Shown here piece after piece: positions 5,355-44,421 of a stretch of 64,000 nucleotides of DNA. Within the stretch, counting starts at the first letter, position 1. Every line of letters begins with the position of its first letter. The notes below the pieces were generated by a model. That model was not told where the DNA came from. It was given only the letters and a program-made list of their open reading frames with translations, and ran no database searches. The DNA is from Shigella phage KNP5: the sequence record KX452698; one strand, given 5' to 3'. A program made the position numbers and the translations under genes.

Positions 5355-5831
5355 GGTGTCTTTTCCATCCTAATTTAGCTGCTTTTGAAACCAGTTCTTT
5401 AATTTTTCCTTTTGTCCATTCAGGACCAGGAGGTTCATGACATAACATTTGCTTAACTCCGTTATTATACCATTTTTTACCTTTATTATGTGATGAAGCT
5501 TTAAATTTATTTGACCTTCCTTTTACATAACCTTTTGGAATATAAGGCAAAAAGGNNNNNNNNNNNNNNNNNNNNNNNNNNNNNNNNNNNNNNNNNNNNN
5601 NNNNNNNNNNNNNNNNNNNNNNNNNNNNNNNNNNNNNNNNNNNNNNNNNNNNNNTGAATCAAATAAGTGAGGATTATCTGAAAGCTCTTTATTATAAATT
5701 TTCTTATACTTTTTAGATAAAACTGAACCATGATATCCAGCTAAATGCCTATCTAAAGACGTAGATCCAATATAAAAAGGAGGAAGTTTATCTCCACTAT
5801 ATATTGTTAAATAAGTTATATATTTTTTCAT
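5332..5831 (-). CDS. GIY-YIG-like ORF (possible seg-type free-standing homing endonuclease) broken by a 99-N gap
   Basis: N-terminal fragment KKYITYLTIYSGDKLPPFYIGSTSLDRHLAGYHG resembles the GIY...YIG...R...H nuclease motif; basic C-terminal fragment on other side of gap in a different frame. Confidence 0.35.
5556..5654. other. Run of 99 N (assembly gap or masked sequence)
   Basis: Direct observation; ORF calls crossing it are unreliable. Confidence 0.99.
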
Positions 5832-26927: not shown

Positions 26928-26970
26928 CGATAGTTGTATAGTATCACAGCTCAAATGGAAAGTAAACCGG
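26928..26970 (-). promoter_or_regulatory. T4-type early promoter
   Basis: Plus-strand gatagttgtatagtatcac ... agtaaaccgg repeat family. Confidence 0.5.
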
Positions 26971-33491: not shown

Positions 33492-33965
33492 TTATTTGAA
33501 TGATTTGACGTACTGAATAGAGCCTTTGCTATTCACGAAAGCGATTTTACCATTTTTGTTATACATGGTAGCAGTACGCTGATAACCATAAGTTTGTTTA
33601 CCAGATTGATAACCAACTAATGCAAAATTATCTTCACCCATTTTATTCTGCTTCGCGCGGATACGTTCATGACCATGTGCCATAAGAACCTTAGCGTCGC
33701 CAGTTGCAATGGATCTACGAGTTTTTTCATCTTCAACTGTATTAACAAAGTCGTCAAATGAATCAAATTTAGCGTGAGATTTATTATACAGTTTTCCATC
33801 TACTGCATAATTATATCCCTGTACATCCATCTCAACTTCTGTACCATCATCCAATACAGCAGTGATTTTTTGACCTTTTTTAAATTTCAAAAGATCAGTA
33901 AAAGATTCAGCGATAATTTGAGAATTAATAGCTGCTTCAGTGATAAATTCTTGATATGTTTTCAT
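33492..33965 (-). CDS. Internal-protein-like head protein with capsid-targeting leader (157 aa)
   Basis: N-terminus MKTYQEFITE-A matches T4 internal-protein CTS and prohead protease site. Confidence 0.6.
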   Translation of the reverse strand: MKTYQEFITEAAINSQIIAESFTDLLKFKKGQKITAVLDDGTEVEMDVQGYNYAVDGKLYNKSHAKFDSFDDFVNTVEDEKTRRSIATGDAKVLMAHGHERIRAKQNKMGEDNFALVGYQSGKQTYGYQRTATMYNKNGKIAFVNSKGSIQYVKSFK

Positions 33966-33974
33966 GTGTTTCCT

Positions 33975-34391
33975 TTAAATGTAAATAGTTTTACCGTAGT
34001 ATTTATACCAGTGTGGCTTCATTAAAATTTTTTCATCGAGTCGTTGTTGACTCAACTTAATAGCTGATTTGCATGGATTATAATCATTTTTCCATTCTGC
34101 TGGAATATCGCTGATGTCAGGAACTTCAGTATCTTTTATATTAAACCCACGTTTTAAGCATTCCGTTATAATGTCTGATTGACGCTTTCGCAAAAATTCT
34201 AACTTATCATAAAAGAACGTAACATGACCAGAGCCTAAAATAAACTCGGAAGATATTTTAAAATCTTTAACCCGCTTACCATTTGCAACATGTTTACGAA
34301 CTATACCAAAAACACGCGGCAGTTCACGGTATTCTGCGATTAAATGTTGATCAGCAAGTTCAGATACTAAAGTCAAATTAATACGAGTCAT
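33975..34391 (-). CDS. denV: Endonuclease V, pyrimidine-dimer DNA glycosylase (138 aa)
   Basis: [28 protein letters not shown]...; same length as T4 DenV. Confidence 0.9.
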
Positions 34392-34450: not shown

Positions 34451-34981
<531 letters not shown>

Positions 34982-38959: not shown

Positions 38960-38990
38960 AAAAGCCCCAACCTTTTGGTCGGGGTTAAGA
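38960..38990 (-). terminator. Intrinsic terminator 3' of internal-protein-like gene
   Basis: CCCCGACC-AAAA-GGUUGGGG stem-loop followed by UUUUU; near-identical copy at 39519-39549. Confidence 0.6.
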
Positions 38991-38993
38991 ATG

Positions 38994-39467
38994 TTATTTG
39001 ATTTGTTTAGCAGACCAAATGCGGTCTTTAATAATTTTTTGAATGTCTTCAACATACTCAAGAGAGTGAACATGTGGATTATCTTTGAAACTATAAGCAC
39101 GGGCTAACTTTTGGCCTTCGGTTTTGATTACTAAAAGCTCTTTAAGGATAGCTTCATATTTAGAGATAATTCCTTTAACAATATTTTTTTCTTGTGCAAC
39201 TTTAGGATCTGCTTTAGGAGCAGGTTTACCCGAAGCCTTTGCAAAAGCAGCGCCAGTAGCAACTAGACTTTTCCAGGCCATACTAACCGCATTTCCCGTA
39301 AATCCTTCTGCTTTCATGTCGCGAGCAAATTGGAATCGTGATTCGTCAGAAGCATCTTTATAGGAATATTTACCCGCTGCAATGGCTGCTTTTGCGACAG
39401 CTTGAATTTCGGTGCTAGATGCTTCATTTAACACCGCTTCATTTAAAAATTGAGCATATGATTTCAT
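38994..39467 (-). CDS. Internal-protein-like head protein with capsid-targeting leader (157 aa)
   Basis: N-terminus MKSYAQFLNE-A; Ala/Lys-rich body; bracketed by repeated terminator hairpins. Confidence 0.55.
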   Translation of the reverse strand: MKSYAQFLNEAVLNEASSTEIQAVAKAAIAAGKYSYKDASDESRFQFARDMKAEGFTGNAVSMAWKSLVATGAAFAKASGKPAPKADPKVAQEKNIVKGIISKYEAILKELLVIKTEGQKLARAYSFKDNPHVHSLEYVEDIQKIIKDRIWSAKQIK

Positions 39468-39518
39468 CTTATTTCCTGTTTTAATTCGTGGATTTAATAT
39501 ACTACTATATTTATACTA

Positions 39519-39549
39519 AAAAGCCCCAACCTTTCGGTCGGGGCTAAGC
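39519..39549 (-). terminator. Intrinsic terminator, likely 3' end of stable RNA
   Basis: CCCCGACC-GAAA-GGUUGGGG followed by UUUUU on minus strand. Confidence 0.55.
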
Positions 39550-40202: not shown

Positions 40203-40219
40203 ATTTTCCTCACTTAATT

Positions 40220-40295
40220 GGTCGAGACAGTAGGGATCGAACCTACGACCTAGGACTTAGAAGGTCCTTGCTCTTCCTTCTGAGCTATGCCTCGT
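40220..40295 (-). tRNA. tRNA-Arg (anticodon UCU), CCA encoded
   Basis: Cloverleaf folded by hand; anticodon loop CUUCUAA; T-arm GUAGGUUCGAUCCCUAC. Confidence 0.8.
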
Positions 40296-40299
40296 ATTT

Positions 40300-40374
40300 G
40301 GCGGACATGCATGGATTCGAACCATGGACCAATTGATTAACAGTCAACTGCTCTACCACTGAGCTACACATCCA
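40300..40374 (-). tRNA. tRNA-Asn (anticodon GUU), CCA encoded
   Basis: Acceptor GGAUGUG/CAUGUCC, anticodon loop CUGUUAA, T-loop GGUUCGAAUCC. Confidence 0.7.
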
Positions 40375-40378
40375 AATT

Positions 40379-40465
40379 GGTGGGGAGTGATGGAGTCGAA
40401 CCACCCGAGTCGCAATGACAATGGATTTACAGTCCACACCGCTACCTCTACGGGATAACTCCCCT
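40379..40465 (-). tRNA. tRNA-Tyr (anticodon GUA), long variable arm, CCA encoded
   Basis: Acceptor GGGGAGU/ACUCCCC, anticodon loop CUGUAAA, class II extra arm. Confidence 0.7.
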
Positions 40466-40477
40466 AATTCTTAATTT

Positions 40478-40552
40478 GGTGGCCCTGGGTGGAATTGAAC
40501 CACCATCTGGCGATTATGAGTCGCTTGCTTGAACCTTCCAGCTACAGGGCCT
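40478..40552 (-). tRNA. tRNA-Ile (anticodon CAU, probably lysidine-modified; tRNA-Met not excluded)
   Basis: Perfect acceptor GGCCCUG/CAGGGCC; anticodon loop CUCAUAA; adjacent to tRNA-Thr as in the T4 Thr-Ile dimer. Confidence 0.75.
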
Positions 40553-40553
40553 T

Positions 40554-40629
40554 GGTGCTGATTGACGGAATCGAACCGCCGACCTTCTCATTACAAGTGA
40601 GTTGCTCTACCTACTGAGCTAAATCAGCA
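40554..40629 (-). tRNA. tRNA-Thr (anticodon UGU)
   Basis: Acceptor GCUGAUU/AAUCAGC; anticodon loop CUUGUAA. Confidence 0.8.
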
Positions 40630-40634
40630 AAACT

Positions 40635-40724
40635 GGCGGAGGCGATAGGATTTGAACCTATGAGTCGCCGGAGCGACTGCCGGTTTTCAAGACCGGTGCA
40701 TTAAACCACTCTGCCACGCCTCCA
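40635..40724 (-). tRNA. tRNA-Ser (anticodon UGA), long variable arm
   Basis: Acceptor GGAGGCG/CGCCUCC; anticodon loop CUUGAAA. Confidence 0.8.
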
Positions 40725-40726
40725 GT

Positions 40727-40800
40727 CTCCATACAAGGATTTGAACCTTGGACCTCCTGATCCCAAATCAGGCGCTCTACCAAACTGAGCTACACGGAGT
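40727..40800 (-). tRNA. tRNA-Pro (anticodon UGG), CCA not encoded
   Basis: C1-G72 acceptor; anticodon loop UUUGGGA; 2 nt from tRNA-Ser (dimeric precursor arrangement). Confidence 0.75.
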
Positions 40801-40809
40801 AAATTAAAT

Positions 40810-40884
<75 letters not shown>

Positions 40885-40889
40885 AATTT

Positions 40890-40976
40890 GGTGCGAGAAG
40901 TGGGACTCGAACCCACAAGGAAATCATTCCGCAGCATTTTAAGTGCTGTGCCTTTACCAATTTGACCATTCTCGCG
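40890..40976 (-). tRNA. tRNA-Leu (anticodon UAA), long variable arm
   Basis: Acceptor GCGAGAA/UUCUCGC; anticodon loop CUUAAAA. Confidence 0.8.
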
Positions 40977-40977
40977 C

Positions 40978-41050
40978 TGGGAATAAAGGACTCGAACCTT
41001 TGCATCCTGGAATCAAAATCCAGTGCCTTACCAACTTGGCTAATTCCCAA
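40978..41050 (-). tRNA. tRNA-Gln (anticodon UUG), CCA not encoded
   Basis: U1-A72 acceptor UGGGAAU/AUUCCCA; anticodon loop UUUUGAU; 1 nt from tRNA-Leu. Confidence 0.75.
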
Positions 41051-41415: not shown

Positions 41416-41514
41416 NNNNNNNNNNNNNNNNNNNNNNNNNNNNNNNNNNNNNNNNNNNNNNNNNNNNNNNNNNNNNNNNNNNNNNNNNNNNNNNNNNNNN
41501 NNNNNNNNNNNNNN
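41416..41514. other. Run of 99 N (assembly gap or masked sequence)
   Basis: Direct observation; identical length to the gap at 5556-5654. Confidence 0.99.
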
Positions 41515-41715: not shown

Positions 41716-42005
41716 GCTGCATTAATGTAAGTATATTTAATACATTCAAGACCCAAAGGATTCTTGAAAATATCATATTCAAGAGGACCTTTTTCTGTTT
41801 CAATAAAGAAATCAAAATTTACTGTATTAAATGTACGGTCTTCCTTTACTAATTTAACTTGAGAAGATGAACGGCCAATGTAAACCTTTTCAACTTCAAA
41901 ATATGTTAAAACGCCATAATCATCAATCAAGGCTTTAGCTGCTTCTTGATCATATTTATATCCATTTTCAATGGATGATACTTTCGCATAAAGAATCACT
42001 ATCAA
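41709..42005 (-). CDS. Hypothetical protein (98 aa)
   Basis: Minus-strand ORF. Confidence 0.5.
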   Translation of the reverse strand: MIVILYAKVSSIENGYKYDQEAAKALIDDYGVLTYFEVEKVYIGRSSSQVKLVKEDRTFNTVNFDFFIETEKGPLEYDIFKNPLGLECIKYTYINAAW

Positions 42006-42412
42006 CCTCTATCAACAATAACATGAGTATGAGCATTTACAATTTGCCACCAATCGAAACGATTGGAACCATAATCTGGTTTATTTTCATTTTCTTTAAT
42101 GATATCACGCAGTTTATCTTCTGTTTCAGCATACGCAATTAAATCATCATATCCACCACAAGGATAATAATTATCACCTGCGAATAAAAGAAAATTTACC
42201 TTAGATGGATTTACGTAATAATGGTCTTTAGGATATTTAGTTCCTCTCCAATCAGTTACTTCAACATAACGATAAGAAAATCCATTTTTACTTTCAATCC
42301 AACTCCACGCTTCAAAAGGAGTATTAAAAACTTTATCAGGTATTAAATTACCTTCAAAATGAGAAGGATTTGCATAATCCCCAGCATAAACATAGTATTC
42401 GTTAATACTCAT
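42002..42412 (-). CDS. Hypothetical protein (136 aa)
   Basis: Minus-strand ORF, Tyr/Trp-rich. Confidence 0.5.
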   Translation of the reverse strand: MSINEYYVYAGDYANPSHFEGNLIPDKVFNTPFEAWSWIESKNGFSYRYVEVTDWRGTKYPKDHYYVNPSKVNFLLFAGDNYYPCGGYDDLIAYAETEDKLRDIIKENENKPDYGSNRFDWWQIVNAHTHVIVDRG

Positions 42413-42598
42413 CTATTCACCTTTAGAAATTTTATCCATAACGATAGCAATTAAACCAATTAAAAATGCTACTACAAGTGAAAAAACATTTTCTGCTGTA
42501 GTCAATAATCCGCAAATAAATCCAACAAACATTGAAAAACTAAAAGCGGAAGCAGAAATTGCAATAGCAACATTTCGAATTAATTCACAACGTTTCAT
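42413..42598 (-). CDS. Small membrane protein (61 aa)
   Basis: Two hydrophobic helices; GAGGAG RBS 3' of early promoter. Confidence 0.5.
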   Translation of the reverse strand: MKRCELIRNVAIAISASAFSFSMFVGFICGLLTTAENVFSLVVAFLIGLIAIVMDKISKGE

Positions 42599-42611: not shown

Positions 42612-42660
42612 GTAGTTGATAGGGTAATAGTATCACAACTAAAACCCTATGTAAACAACT
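42612..42660 (-). promoter_or_regulatory. T4-type early promoter
   Basis: Plus-strand ...tatgtaaacaactttgtgaaattattttaaatc repeat family. Confidence 0.5.
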
Positions 42661-42668
42661 TTGTGAAA

Positions 42669-42926
42669 TTATTTTAAATCTTCTAATCGTTTCTTCATCT
42701 TAGAACCATTTTTAGCAATTTCTCCTGCATCGGAGCATAATGCTAAAAGTGCTTTAACTTTAGTTTGGTCTCCTTTAAAAGATGAAGGATCGACTGCAGC
42801 AGCAAGTTCTTTAATACGAGAGAAAAGACGCTCAGCTTCAGCTAAAGCCATTCCAAGCTTTACTTCCATACCGTGAGAAGATTCAGTGATAGTGGTTTTT
42901 GTAGCAAACTCTTTGAAAGTTTTCAT
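42669..42926 (-). CDS. Internal-protein-like head protein with capsid-targeting leader (85 aa), at the T4 ipI position
   Basis: N-terminus MKTFKEFATK...; directly 3' of 57B and its own early promoter. Confidence 0.55.
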   Translation of the reverse strand: MKTFKEFATKTTITESSHGMEVKLGMALAEAERLFSRIKELAAAVDPSSFKGDQTKVKALLALCSDAGEIAKNGSKMKKRLEDLK

Positions 42927-42947
42927 TTTATTTTCCTAATTAATTTT

Positions 42948-42990
42948 GATGAGATAATAGTATCACTACCTCATCAGCATGTAAACAACT
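42948..42990 (-). promoter_or_regulatory. T4-type early promoter
   Basis: Plus-strand ...catgtaaacaactttgtgaaattattttaaatc, nearly identical to the copy at 42640-42670. Confidence 0.5.
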
Positions 42991-42998
42991 TTGTGAAA

Positions 42999-43695
<697 letters not shown>

Positions 43696-43696
<1 letters not shown>

Positions 43697-44421
43697 TATA
43701 GTACCTTTAGTGTATTTTTAATTTTAGAAAAAAGTTCTTCAAGAGAACCATCGTTTGTAATTACTAAATCGCCATCACGAATTGGCAATCCAGCTTCTGT
43801 AATATGAGTATCATTGGATTTTTGACCAGGACGAACTACATGAATTACTGTAGCACCCATCGCCCTAGCCGCATCCATTTCATGATCTTGACGAGTATCA
43901 GGAACGATATAATAATCATAGCCTGAGTTAAATTTATCAAGATAATCTAAAGCAAATAATTTTACCCAATACATGCGGTCGAAGTTATTAACAATCAAAT
44001 CCGTACCTAGGGCTTGCATCAGACGACGGACTGACCATTGATCTTCAATATTATTTATAACGTCAGCAATCTTATTAAATGCTACGAAAGTAACTGATTC
44101 TTTTCCTTCGTCATCAAAAACAAACACGCCTTTAATTGGGCTTTTACTATTAAGATAGCAAAATGCTTGTTCCATAATCGTAATTACTTCTAATTTAGTC
44201 AAATTCAAATTAGTCTCACGATCATAGTCAATTCCTTCAAACTCTTTACGAGTTAAGCAAGGATAGTCAGTGTTTGCTGCAAATACGCCCCATGCATAAG
44301 CCAATGCATCTTTAATAGGACCAGCAAGTTGATATTTAGCTGCAGAATAATTATTCATGATAAAATCTGCAGTAGTATCTTTTCCACTACGCTTTACACC
44401 ACTTAAAAAGATTAGTTTCAT
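43696..44421 (-). CDS. 1: Deoxynucleoside monophosphate kinase gp1 (241 aa)
   Basis: P-loop LSGVKRSGKDT; same length as T4 gp1. Confidence 0.9.

What the first reader, a model, noticed from the sequence alone, without database searches (positions are those of the whole stretch)
42669..42926. Third CTS-bearing small protein at the ipI position
An 85-aa ORF beginning MKTFKEFATK lies directly after 57B and has its own early promoter (42948-42990), the arrangement of ipI in T4. The sequence appears distinct from T4 IPI as I recall it, consistent with the known hypervariability of this locus. It is a candidate alternative injected anti-restriction protein.
Basis: partly seen in the sequence, partly recalled or inferred. 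Interest (0 to 1): 0.5.

Follow-up and report, generated by a model that had tools for sequence, protein, structure and literature searches.

The report
Known T-even internal protein gene ip5
The 85-codon gene is real, but it is the already named internal head protein gene ip5 of T2/T6-type phages, sitting where T4 carries ipI; what it acts on in the host is still unknown.

Summary

It resembles T4 IPI only in the N-terminal leader; the mature part is unrelated. Against T4, DNA homology (97%) runs through codon 7, breaks, and resumes at the stop codon, so this is a clean cassette swap. [quoted passage not shown]

The leader has the capsid-targeting determinants (F4, F7) and a gp21 cleavage motif (ITE15|S). 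That predicts a 70-aa mature protein of pI 9.2, modelled as a three-helix bundle with no informative structural match. The gene is under strong purifying selection (dN/dS about 0.05).

The best reading is a packaged, injected counter-defence protein. Its target is unknown: a 2025 study tested ip4-10 against GmrSD variants and found no reproducible inhibition.

The parts
42669..42926 (-). ip5 coding sequence (85 codons plus stop): precursor of internal head protein Ip5
   Evidence: ORF list and sequence. 100% identical to RB15 Ip5 CAA84462, T6 and RB32. PHROG 3499 at 1.2e-49. dN/dS 0.05.
42882..42926 (-). Leader / capsid-targeting sequence, codons 1-15 (MKTFKEFATKTTITE), ending in the predicted gp21 cleavage motif I-T-E
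   Evidence: F4 and F7 match the CTS determinants and L/I-x-E matches the gp21 motif described in PMC9026906. The Gaprivervirus orthologue has a 10-aa leader, MKTYQTFITE, joined directly to the same SSHGMEV. In T4 IPI the ITE19|A site gives the published 76-aa IPI*. The leader has low pLDDT and looks disordered.
42672..42881 (-). Predicted mature Ip5* (70 aa, 7.5 kDa, pI 9.2), a three-helix bundle
   Evidence: AlphaFold2 gives pLDDT about 90 over residues 21-80, with helices at 17-44, 54-63 and 67-83. Composition. No significant sequence or structure match in the PDB.
42932..42937 (-). Shine-Dalgarno AGGAAA, 5 nt upstream of the ATG
   Evidence: Read directly from the sequence. Invariant in the alignment of IP-locus intergenic regions.
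42957..42986 (-). T4-type early promoter of ip5 (GTTTACA, 17-nt spacer, TG-n-TACTAT)
   Evidence: Promoter scan. Motif count 3 against 0 expected. Near-identical to the T4 57B-ipI intergenic sequence.
42947..42976 (-). Inverted repeat / stem-loop overlapping the -10 box (GAUGAGGUAGUGA...UCUCAUC)
   Evidence: MFE -14.8 kcal/mol, z -3.6, 0 of 200 shuffles fold as well.
42946..43014 (-). Upstream copy of the 69-nt flanking repeat (last codons DDLK* of 57B, early promoter, stem-loop)
   Evidence: Direct-repeat family D1, 83% identical to the downstream copy. Aligned with the T4 and RB32 elements.
42616..42684 (-). Downstream copy of the 69-nt flanking repeat (last codons EDLK* of ip5, the early promoter of trna.4 at 42627-42656, stem-loop at 42619-42650)
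   Evidence: Stem AUAGGG/CCCUAU: MFE -16.9 kcal/mol, z -3.9.
42675..42905 (-). Segment with no DNA homology to T4: the swapped cassette body, from ip5 codon 8 to the penultimate codon
   Evidence: Pairwise blastn of window against T4. Homology is 97.5% down to 42906 and 97.1% from 42674 onward. The 231 nt in between replace 268 nt of T4 ipI.
42999..43454 (-). Upstream neighbour 57B = Acb1 (anti-CBASS phosphodiesterase); context only
   Evidence: Pfam PF23474 Acb1 at 3e-60. Annotated 57B in PP01, RB32 and T4.
42413..42598 (-). Downstream neighbour trna.4 (61-aa predicted membrane protein); context only
   Evidence: PHROG 1692 at 6e-35. Annotated trna.4 in PP01, RB32 and T4.

Best explanation
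This is the gene ip5 (IpV) of the T-even phages, one of the alternative internal-protein cassettes that occupy the ipI slot between 57B and trna.4.

Proposed mechanism, with the status of each step:

1. The gene is transcribed from its own T4-type early promoter. Late in infection it is presumably also transcribed by read-through from upstream late promoters (inferred).
2. The 85-aa precursor is recruited into the prohead scaffolding core by its N-terminal capsid-targeting sequence. The motif is shown here; packaging is inferred from T4 IPIII/IPI work.
3. The prohead protease gp21 cuts after I-T-E15. This releases a 70-aa basic three-helix protein that stays in the head with the DNA. The site is inferred from the motif and from orthologue comparison.
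4. The protein is injected with the DNA. It acts at once in the cytoplasm by binding and blocking one specific host defence nuclease that would attack the incoming glucosyl-hmC DNA, most likely an as yet unidentified GmrSD-family or other type IV enzyme. This is inferred by analogy: T4 Ip1, Ip2 and Ip3 each block a different GmrSD.

My estimates are about 0.99 for the identity as Ip5, about 0.85 for packaging and processing, about 0.55-0.6 for a specific counter-defence function, and about 0.35 for a GmrSD-family target.
For: Identity:
- RB32 annotation note: 'similar to RB15 T6 T2 RB70 Ip5 ... replaces ipI'.
- PHROG 3499 'internal head protein' at 1.2e-49.

Locus:
- Same gene order as T4.
- Homology to T4 breaks after codon 7 and resumes at the stop codon.
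- 69-nt flanking repeats with early promoter and stem-loop. These are the IP-locus elements that Arbiol et al. 2010 attribute to Repoila et al. 1994.

CTS and cleavage:
- F4, F7 and I-x-E fit the determinants summarised in PMC9026906.
- Leader length varies between 10 and 15 aa among orthologues, while the mature N-terminus SSHG/ATDT stays in register.

Real, constrained protein:
- dN/dS 0.05, and 13 synonymous against 0 non-synonymous changes versus T2.
- A confident all-alpha model.

Function by analogy and context:
- Ip1, Ip2 and Ip3 each inhibit a distinct GmrSD (PMC12373910).
- IPIII acts in the cytoplasm with or without its CTS (PMC9391042).
- The upstream neighbour is Acb1, an anti-CBASS protein.
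Against: - No direct evidence here that Ip5 is in virions or is injected.
- No homology or fold match points to a target.
- Silas et al. 2025 tested ip4-10 against the active GmrSD variants and found no reproducible inhibition (Supplementary Fig. 9).
- T2 and T6 carry Ip5 yet are restricted by GmrSD-ECOR17 and GmrSD-ECOR21, so Ip5 does not neutralise those enzymes.
- Only an early promoter lies next to the gene. The nearest late-promoter-like TATAAATA is about 1.1 kb upstream, inside gene 1.
- Near-invariance of the protein across about 250 genomes is not the signature expected of an antagonist in a fast arms race.
Confidence: 0.85

Rival explanations
1. Ip5 is packaged and injected, but its target is a defence outside the GmrSD family. 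Candidates are another modification-dependent nuclease, a DNA glycosylase of the Brig type, or an Abi/TA-type system.
For: - Tests of ip4-10 against GmrSD variants were negative.
- T2 and T6, which carry Ip5, are still restricted by several GmrSDs.
- The predicted fold is unlike IPI* (PMC3012670).
- A 47%-identical homologue is kept in Mosigvirus. By my own recollection of PMC6024577, whose title appears, these RB69-like phages carry arabinosyl-hmC rather than glucosyl-hmC. That would argue against a target that reads glucose specifically.
Against: - All three characterised T4 IPs target GmrSD enzymes.
- GmrSD diversity is very large: 20 clusters were examined and only 8 systems were active in the assay.
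- No positive evidence points to any alternative target.
Confidence: 0.25
2. Ip5 is a generic internal head protein. It is a small basic filler that neutralises DNA charge or helps packaging and ejection, and it has no specific host target.
For: - The mature protein is basic, pI 9.2.
- Its sequence is nearly invariant across about 250 genomes and under strong purifying selection, unlike a typical arms-race antagonist.
- No target was found in the GmrSD screens.
Against: - The gene is present or absent as a cassette and is interchangeable with unrelated proteins (IPI, Ip6-9) in otherwise 97%-identical genomes. That is not expected of a structural requirement.
- T4 IPs are non-essential, and each has a specific defence target.
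- Conserved surface motifs (KLGxALxEAE, EIAKNGSxMKxRLE, Cys64) persist at 47% identity, which suggests a specific interaction.
Confidence: 0.18
3. The ORF is an early cytoplasmic accessory protein that is not packaged. Its CTS-like start would be only a scar of recombination within the conserved 5' end of the cassette.
For: - DNA homology to T4 covers the promoter and the first 7 codons, so MKTFKEF could be inherited passively.
- Only an early promoter is adjacent.
Against: - The I-T-E cleavage motif lies beyond the recombination joint and is conserved.
- The Mosigvirus homologue sits at a different locus, between e and denV, with a diverged DNA context. It still keeps MKTY-EF plus an L-x-E leader.
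- The first 10 residues of IPIII suffice to package foreign proteins, so a protein with this start would be packaged whatever its origin.
Confidence: 0.05
4. The ORF is a previously undescribed internal protein, that is, a novel alternative to IPI.
For: None beyond its lack of similarity to T4 IPI.
Against: - Annotated as Ip5/IpV in RB32, PP01, PST and GiZh.
Confidence: 0.01

Closest known systems
[not shown]
   Same: The amino-acid sequence is identical (85 of 85) to RB15, T6 and RB32. The position directly after 57B, the leader and the flanking promoter/stem-loop elements are the same.
   Different: Nothing of substance. In this window ip5 is the only IP gene between 57B and trna.4, as in PP01, Shfl2 and pSs-1. 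T6 and PST add ip6, RB32 adds ip9 and ip7, and RB15 adds ip9, ip7 and ip8.
T4 IPI / IPI* (Ip1), injected inhibitor of the type IV restriction enzyme GmrSD of E. coli CT596
   Same: Same genomic slot and the same early promoter, near-identical in DNA. The leader type is the same (MKTFKEF...ITE|). Mature size (70 against 76 aa) and basic pI (9.2 against 9.0) are similar.
   Different: The mature sequences are unrelated: BLASTP similarity stops at residue 22. Ip5 is predicted to be an all-alpha three-helix bundle. IPI* has two beta sheets flanked by helices (PMC3012670). No GmrSD target is known for Ip5.
RB69ORF127c-type 'internal head protein' of Mosigvirus (e.g. PhAPEC2 gp114)
   Same: A true homologue at 47.6% identity over 82 aa (E 7e-16). 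It has the same leader logic and the same conserved motifs and helix pattern.
   Different: It lies at the other IP locus, between lysozyme e and denV. It has a 9-aa C-terminal extension. dN/dS against the window gene is 0.27-0.30.
PeSL (promoter-early stem-loop) cassettes of RB49/phi1 (Arbiol et al. 2010)
   Same: A single small accessory gene is bracketed by repeats of about 70 bp. Each repeat combines the upstream stop codon, an AT-rich tract, an early promoter, a stem-loop overlapping the -10 box, and the SD/ATG. The arrangement suits cassette shuffling by homologous recombination.
   Different: Arbiol et al. state that the IP-locus elements are analogues, not homologues, of PeSLs. They are built on T4 early promoters and have weaker, AT-rich stems without polyG/polyC.

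Membership tests
Ip5 (RB15/T6/T2 internal protein 5; PHROG 3499) | Full-length sequence identity to the type Ip5 (RB15 CAA84462.1) | tested here: met
   [not shown]
Ip5 (RB15/T6/T2 internal protein 5; PHROG 3499) | First gene after 57B in the 57B-trna.4 IP locus | tested here: met
   Window order is 57A-57B-ORF85-trna.4-trna.3. The same order is seen in PP01, RB32, PST, T6 and T2.
T-even internal proteins (CTS-targeted, injected head proteins) | N-terminal capsid-targeting sequence MKT(Y/F)xEF, with the targeting determinants at residues 4 and 7 | tested here: met
   MKTFKEF has F4 and F7. Determinants as summarised in PMC9026906. M1, T3 and F7 are invariant across the family alignment.
T-even internal proteins (CTS-targeted, injected head proteins) | gp21 prohead-protease site (L/I-x-E|) at the end of the leader | tested here: met
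   I13-T14-E15|S16. E15 is invariant, and the leader varies between 10 and 15 aa while the mature start stays in register. The motif is from PMC9026906. Actual cleavage was not observed.
T-even internal proteins (CTS-targeted, injected head proteins) | Flanked by elements of about 70 bp carrying a T4 early promoter and an overlapping inverted repeat | tested here: met
   69-nt direct repeat at 83% identity. Promoter hexamers. Stem-loops with z -3.6 and -3.9. Alignment with the T4 and RB32 IP intergenic regions. Described for the IP loci.
T-even internal proteins (CTS-targeted, injected head proteins) | Small basic mature protein | tested here: met
   70 aa, 7.5 kDa, pI 9.2.
T-even internal proteins (CTS-targeted, injected head proteins) | Physically present in the mature head and ejected into the host with the DNA | not testable with these tools
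   Needs virion proteomics or injection assays. No paper reporting this for Ip5 was found in the searchable library.
T4 IPI (Ip1) family of GmrSD-CT596 inhibitors | Homology of the mature (post-cleavage) region to IPI* | tested here: not met
   The BLASTP alignment covers only residues 1-22, the leader. DNA homology to T4 is lost from codon 8 to the stop codon.
T4 IPI (Ip1) family of GmrSD-CT596 inhibitors | IPI* fold: two beta sheets flanked by N- and C-terminal helices | tested here: not met
   [not shown]
T4 IPI (Ip1) family of GmrSD-CT596 inhibitors | Inhibits a GmrSD-family type IV restriction enzyme | not testable with these tools
   From the literature only: ip4-10 showed no reproducible inhibition of the GmrSD variants tested. 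Phages T2 and T6, which carry Ip5, are restricted by GmrSD-ECOR17 and GmrSD-ECOR21.

The most novel reading that the evidence does not exclude
Ip5 is an injected inhibitor of a defence system outside the GmrSD family. Examples would be a different modification-dependent nuclease or a glycosylase acting on hmC-type DNA. That would extend the target range of T-even internal proteins beyond the one enzyme family known so far. Three observations leave this open: the tested GmrSD variants were not inhibited, the fold is unrelated to IPI*, and a homologue is retained in Mosigvirus phages, whose DNA modification differs by my recollection.
Probability: 0.25. Interest if true: 0.5.

Novelty: already known. 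Interest (0 to 1): 0.1.

Why it matters
For the scan, the result is a clean negative on novelty. The feature is a correctly recognised gene that was named long ago (ip5), is present in T2 and T6, and occurs in hundreds of sequenced Tequatrovirus genomes.

One biological question remains open. Ip5 is among the commonest internal proteins of T-even phages: 267 phage records hold it at 80% identity or more, plus 228 with Mosigvirus homologues, against 292 records for IPI. Yet it has no known target. Finding that target would name one more host defence that limits T-even phages, including therapeutic ones. It would also test whether all internal proteins are GmrSD inhibitors.

Tried and rejected
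- **Pfam and NCBIfam:** nothing significant for the ORF.
- **PDB sequence search:** only noise, E above 0.7.
- **Word-indexed search of 5.8 billion proteins:** only Ip5 itself and close variants. A second search seeded with the Mosigvirus homologue found only that subgroup.
- **Exhaustive HMMER against 1.84 billion cluster representatives:** three clusters in all. The family appears confined to T-even phages, and no cellular relative suggests a function.
- **Plasmid collection (tblastn):** no match.
- **Literature searches for 'Ip5':** swamped by inositol phosphates, and no phage Ip5 functional or proteomic paper was found.
- **Papers not held in the library:** Repoila 1994, Bair 2007 and Miller 2003. 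What I attribute to Repoila 1994 rests on citing papers and my own recollection. The RB15 record does not itself name that paper.
- **Idea rejected, DNA mimic:** the mature protein is basic, pI 9.2.
- **Idea rejected, Ip5 as a diverged IPI:** no similarity beyond the leader, and a different predicted fold.
- **Failed query:** a first promoter pattern search with the wrong spacing found nothing. It was corrected.

Full report
**1. The observation.**
The minus strand of the window carries an 85-codon ATG-initiated ORF at 42669-42926. It begins MKTFKEFATKTTITESSHGMEV..., and an AGGAAA Shine-Dalgarno lies 5 nt upstream.

The surrounding genes on the same strand are:
- dNMP kinase (gene 1), 43696-44421
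- 57A, 43454-43696 (Pfam GP57, 3e-50)
- 57B, 42999-43454 (Pfam Acb1, 3e-60)
- the ORF
- trna.4, 42413-42598
- trna.3, 42002-42412

This is the T4 order 1-57A-57B-ipI-trna.4-trna.3.

The composite motif GTTTAC-N12-16-TGATACTAT occurs three times in the window, and none of 100 shuffles gave a match.

**2. What it is.**
A megablast of the locus hits 747 phage records, all T4-like. In the annotated records the ORF is called ip5 or ipV "internal head protein" (PP01, RB32, PST).

Identity to named Ip5 proteins:
- 100% to RB32 Ip5
- 100% to T6
- 98.8% to T2

PHROG 3499 "internal head protein" matches end to end at 1.2e-49. The RB32 record notes "similar to RB15 T6 T2 RB70 Ip5 ... replaces ipI". The gene is therefore already known and named.

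**3. Relation to T4 IPI.**
BLASTP of the ORF against T4 IPI aligns only residues 1-22, the leader.

At the DNA level the window and T4 are 97.5% identical from 57B down to 42906, the end of codon 7. They have no detectable homology from 42905 to 42675. They are 97.1% identical again from 42674, the last codon and the stop, onward through trna.4. The body of the gene is thus a cleanly swapped cassette: 231 nt here against 268 nt in T4.

The cassette is bracketed by a 69-nt direct repeat (42946-43014 and 42616-42684, 83% identical). Each copy contains the final codons and stop of the upstream gene (DDLK* and EDLK*), an AT-rich tract, the early promoter, and an inverted repeat overlapping the -10 box. 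The two stems differ in sequence (GAUGAG/CUCAUC against AUAGGG/CCCUAU), but both fold significantly better than shuffles (z -3.6 and -3.9).

The same elements flank ipI in T4 and ip5, ip9 and ip7 in RB32. Arbiol et al. 2010 attribute these "PeSL-like" IP-locus elements to Repoila et al. 1994. They regard them as analogues of PeSLs that mediate shuffling of IP genes.

**4. Anatomy of the protein.**
The CTS determinants defined on IPIII are residues 4 and 7 for targeting and an L/I-x-E motif for gp21 cleavage (PMC9026906). The ORF has F4 and F7, and its first I-x-E is I13-T14-E15.

T4 IPI has the same logic. Cleavage at ...STITE19|A gives 76 residues, the published size of IPI*.

Comparison of orthologues supports E15|S16 as the processing site. 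The Gaprivervirus orthologue (TH22, 82% identical) has a 10-aa leader, MKTYQTFITE, joined directly to SSHGMEVKLG. The Mosigvirus homologues have 15-aa leaders ending L-x-E before ATDTF.

The predicted mature protein is 70 aa, 7.5 kDa and pI 9.2. AlphaFold2 on a 7-sequence alignment gives mean pLDDT 81, about 90 over the mature part. It shows three helices (17-44, 54-63, 67-83) and a low-confidence leader.

Conserved positions at 47% identity include KLGxALxEAE, RIxELA, Cys64 and EIAKNGSxMKxRLE.

The gene is under strong purifying selection:
- dN/dS 0.05 against TH22
- 0.27-0.30 against Mosigvirus
- 13 synonymous and 0 non-synonymous differences against T2

**5. Distribution.**
tblastn finds Ip5 in 495 phage records:
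- 267 at 80% identity or more (Tequatrovirus, Gaprivervirus)
- 228 at about 47%, the RB69ORF127c type of Mosigvirus

The Mosigvirus genes lie at the other IP locus, between lysozyme e and denV. Mature IPI is found in 292 records.

An exhaustive HMMER search of 1.84 billion cluster representatives returns only three clusters, and there is no plasmid match. The family appears confined to T-even phages.

The "hypervariability" of this locus is therefore one of gene content. T6 and PST have ip5 and ip6. RB32 has ip5, ip9 and ip7. RB15 has ip5, ip9, ip7 and ip8. T2 has ip5 and one more. This window, PP01, Shfl2 and pSs-1 have ip5 alone. The protein sequence itself is not hypervariable.

**6. How it most likely works.**
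*Shown here:* the identity of the gene, its CTS and cleavage motifs, its promoter, its cassette structure, its constraint and its predicted fold.

*Inferred from T4 biology:* the leader targets the precursor to the scaffolding core. gp21 removes the leader. The mature basic protein remains with the DNA and is ejected into the cell.

*Inferred by analogy:* it binds and blocks one specific host defence enzyme. In T4, Ip1, Ip2 and Ip3 each inhibit a different GmrSD-family type IV restriction enzyme with no cross-protection (PMC12373910). IPIII works in the cytoplasm with or without its CTS (PMC9391042). The upstream neighbour 57B is the anti-CBASS nuclease Acb1, so the region is a counter-defence neighbourhood.

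*Against a GmrSD target:* Silas et al. tested ip4-10 against the additional active GmrSD variants and could not reproduce any inhibition (Supplementary Fig. 9). T2 and T6, which carry Ip5, are restricted by GmrSD-ECOR17 and GmrSD-ECOR21.

No structural or sequence relative gives a clue to the target.

My estimates:
- packaging and processing: about 0.85
- a specific counter-defence role: about 0.55-0.6
- a GmrSD-family target: about 0.35
- a non-GmrSD target: about 0.25
- a generic structural role: about 0.18
- not packaged: about 0.05

**7. Comparison with what is known, and novelty.**
The ORF is a member of the Ip5 family by identity. It belongs to the T-even internal-protein class by every sequence-level criterion. 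Physical presence in the virion is the one defining feature that cannot be tested here.

It is not a member of the IPI family, because mature-region homology and fold were both tested and not met. It shares IPI's slot, promoter and leader, and probably its mode of delivery.

Nothing in the finding goes beyond what is already annotated in public records and described in the literature. Its proposed experiment has been partly done, with a negative result for the enzymes tried.

**8. Verdict.**
Novelty is "already known" and interest is low (0.1). The open point is the host target of Ip5.

Noticed in passing
window 38994-39467 (-), flanks 38961-38986 and 39518-39543: A 157-aa ORF, MKSYAQFLNEAVLNE|ASSTEIQ..., has a CTS-like leader (Y4, F7, two L-N-E motifs). 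It lies between the e.8 region and the tRNA cluster, outside the two canonical IP loci. It matches RB32ORF133c (157 aa, same leader; a few substitutions), which is annotated 'flanked by 34 bp imperfect direct repeat', and PHROG 2280 (unknown function). Relatives annotate it only as 'hypothetical'. A late-promoter-like TATAAATA (about 39506-39513) precedes it, and near-identical GC stem-loop plus T-run terminators bracket it. It is a candidate additional packaged protein at a third locus.
   Followed up: partly
window 33492-33965 (-): A 157-aa ORF, MKTYQEFITE|AAINS..., is identical to RB32 Ip4 ('similar to T2, RB70 Ip4'). It matches PHROG 3155 'internal virion protein' at 6e-102. It sits directly after denV (33975-34391) and lysozyme e (34451-34945), so the ipII/ipIII locus of this phage holds Ip4 instead of the T4 pair.
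   Followed up: partly
window 42999-43454 (-): Gene 57B is the anti-CBASS phosphodiesterase Acb1 (Pfam PF23474, 3e-60). RefSeq records still call it 'RNA ligase'. It ends with the same DLK-stop plus promoter element as ip5.
   Followed up: partly
window 5556-5654 and 41416-41514: Two runs of exactly 99 N mask sequence. The second interrupts ORFs downstream of trna.2 and upstream of the tRNA cluster.
   Followed up: no
window 40219-41049 (-): A cluster of 10 tRNA genes (Arg, Asn, Tyr, Met, Thr, Ser, Pro, Gly, Leu, Gln). T4 has 8 in this region; Asn and Tyr are extra here. No segB-sized ORF was seen in the ORF list for this stretch.
   Followed up: no
L007 (Escherichia virus TH22, Gaprivervirus) 492-2032: Between 57B and trna.4 this phage carries five consecutive CTS-type ORFs: 121, 90, 99, 80 (the Ip5 orthologue) and 77 (Ip6-like) aa. 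This is a much larger IP array than in the window, and the record is unannotated.
   Followed up: no
window 26938-26967 (-): A third exact match to the IP-type early promoter motif GTTTAC-N14-TGATACTAT lies far from either IP locus. Its downstream gene was not examined.
   Followed up: no
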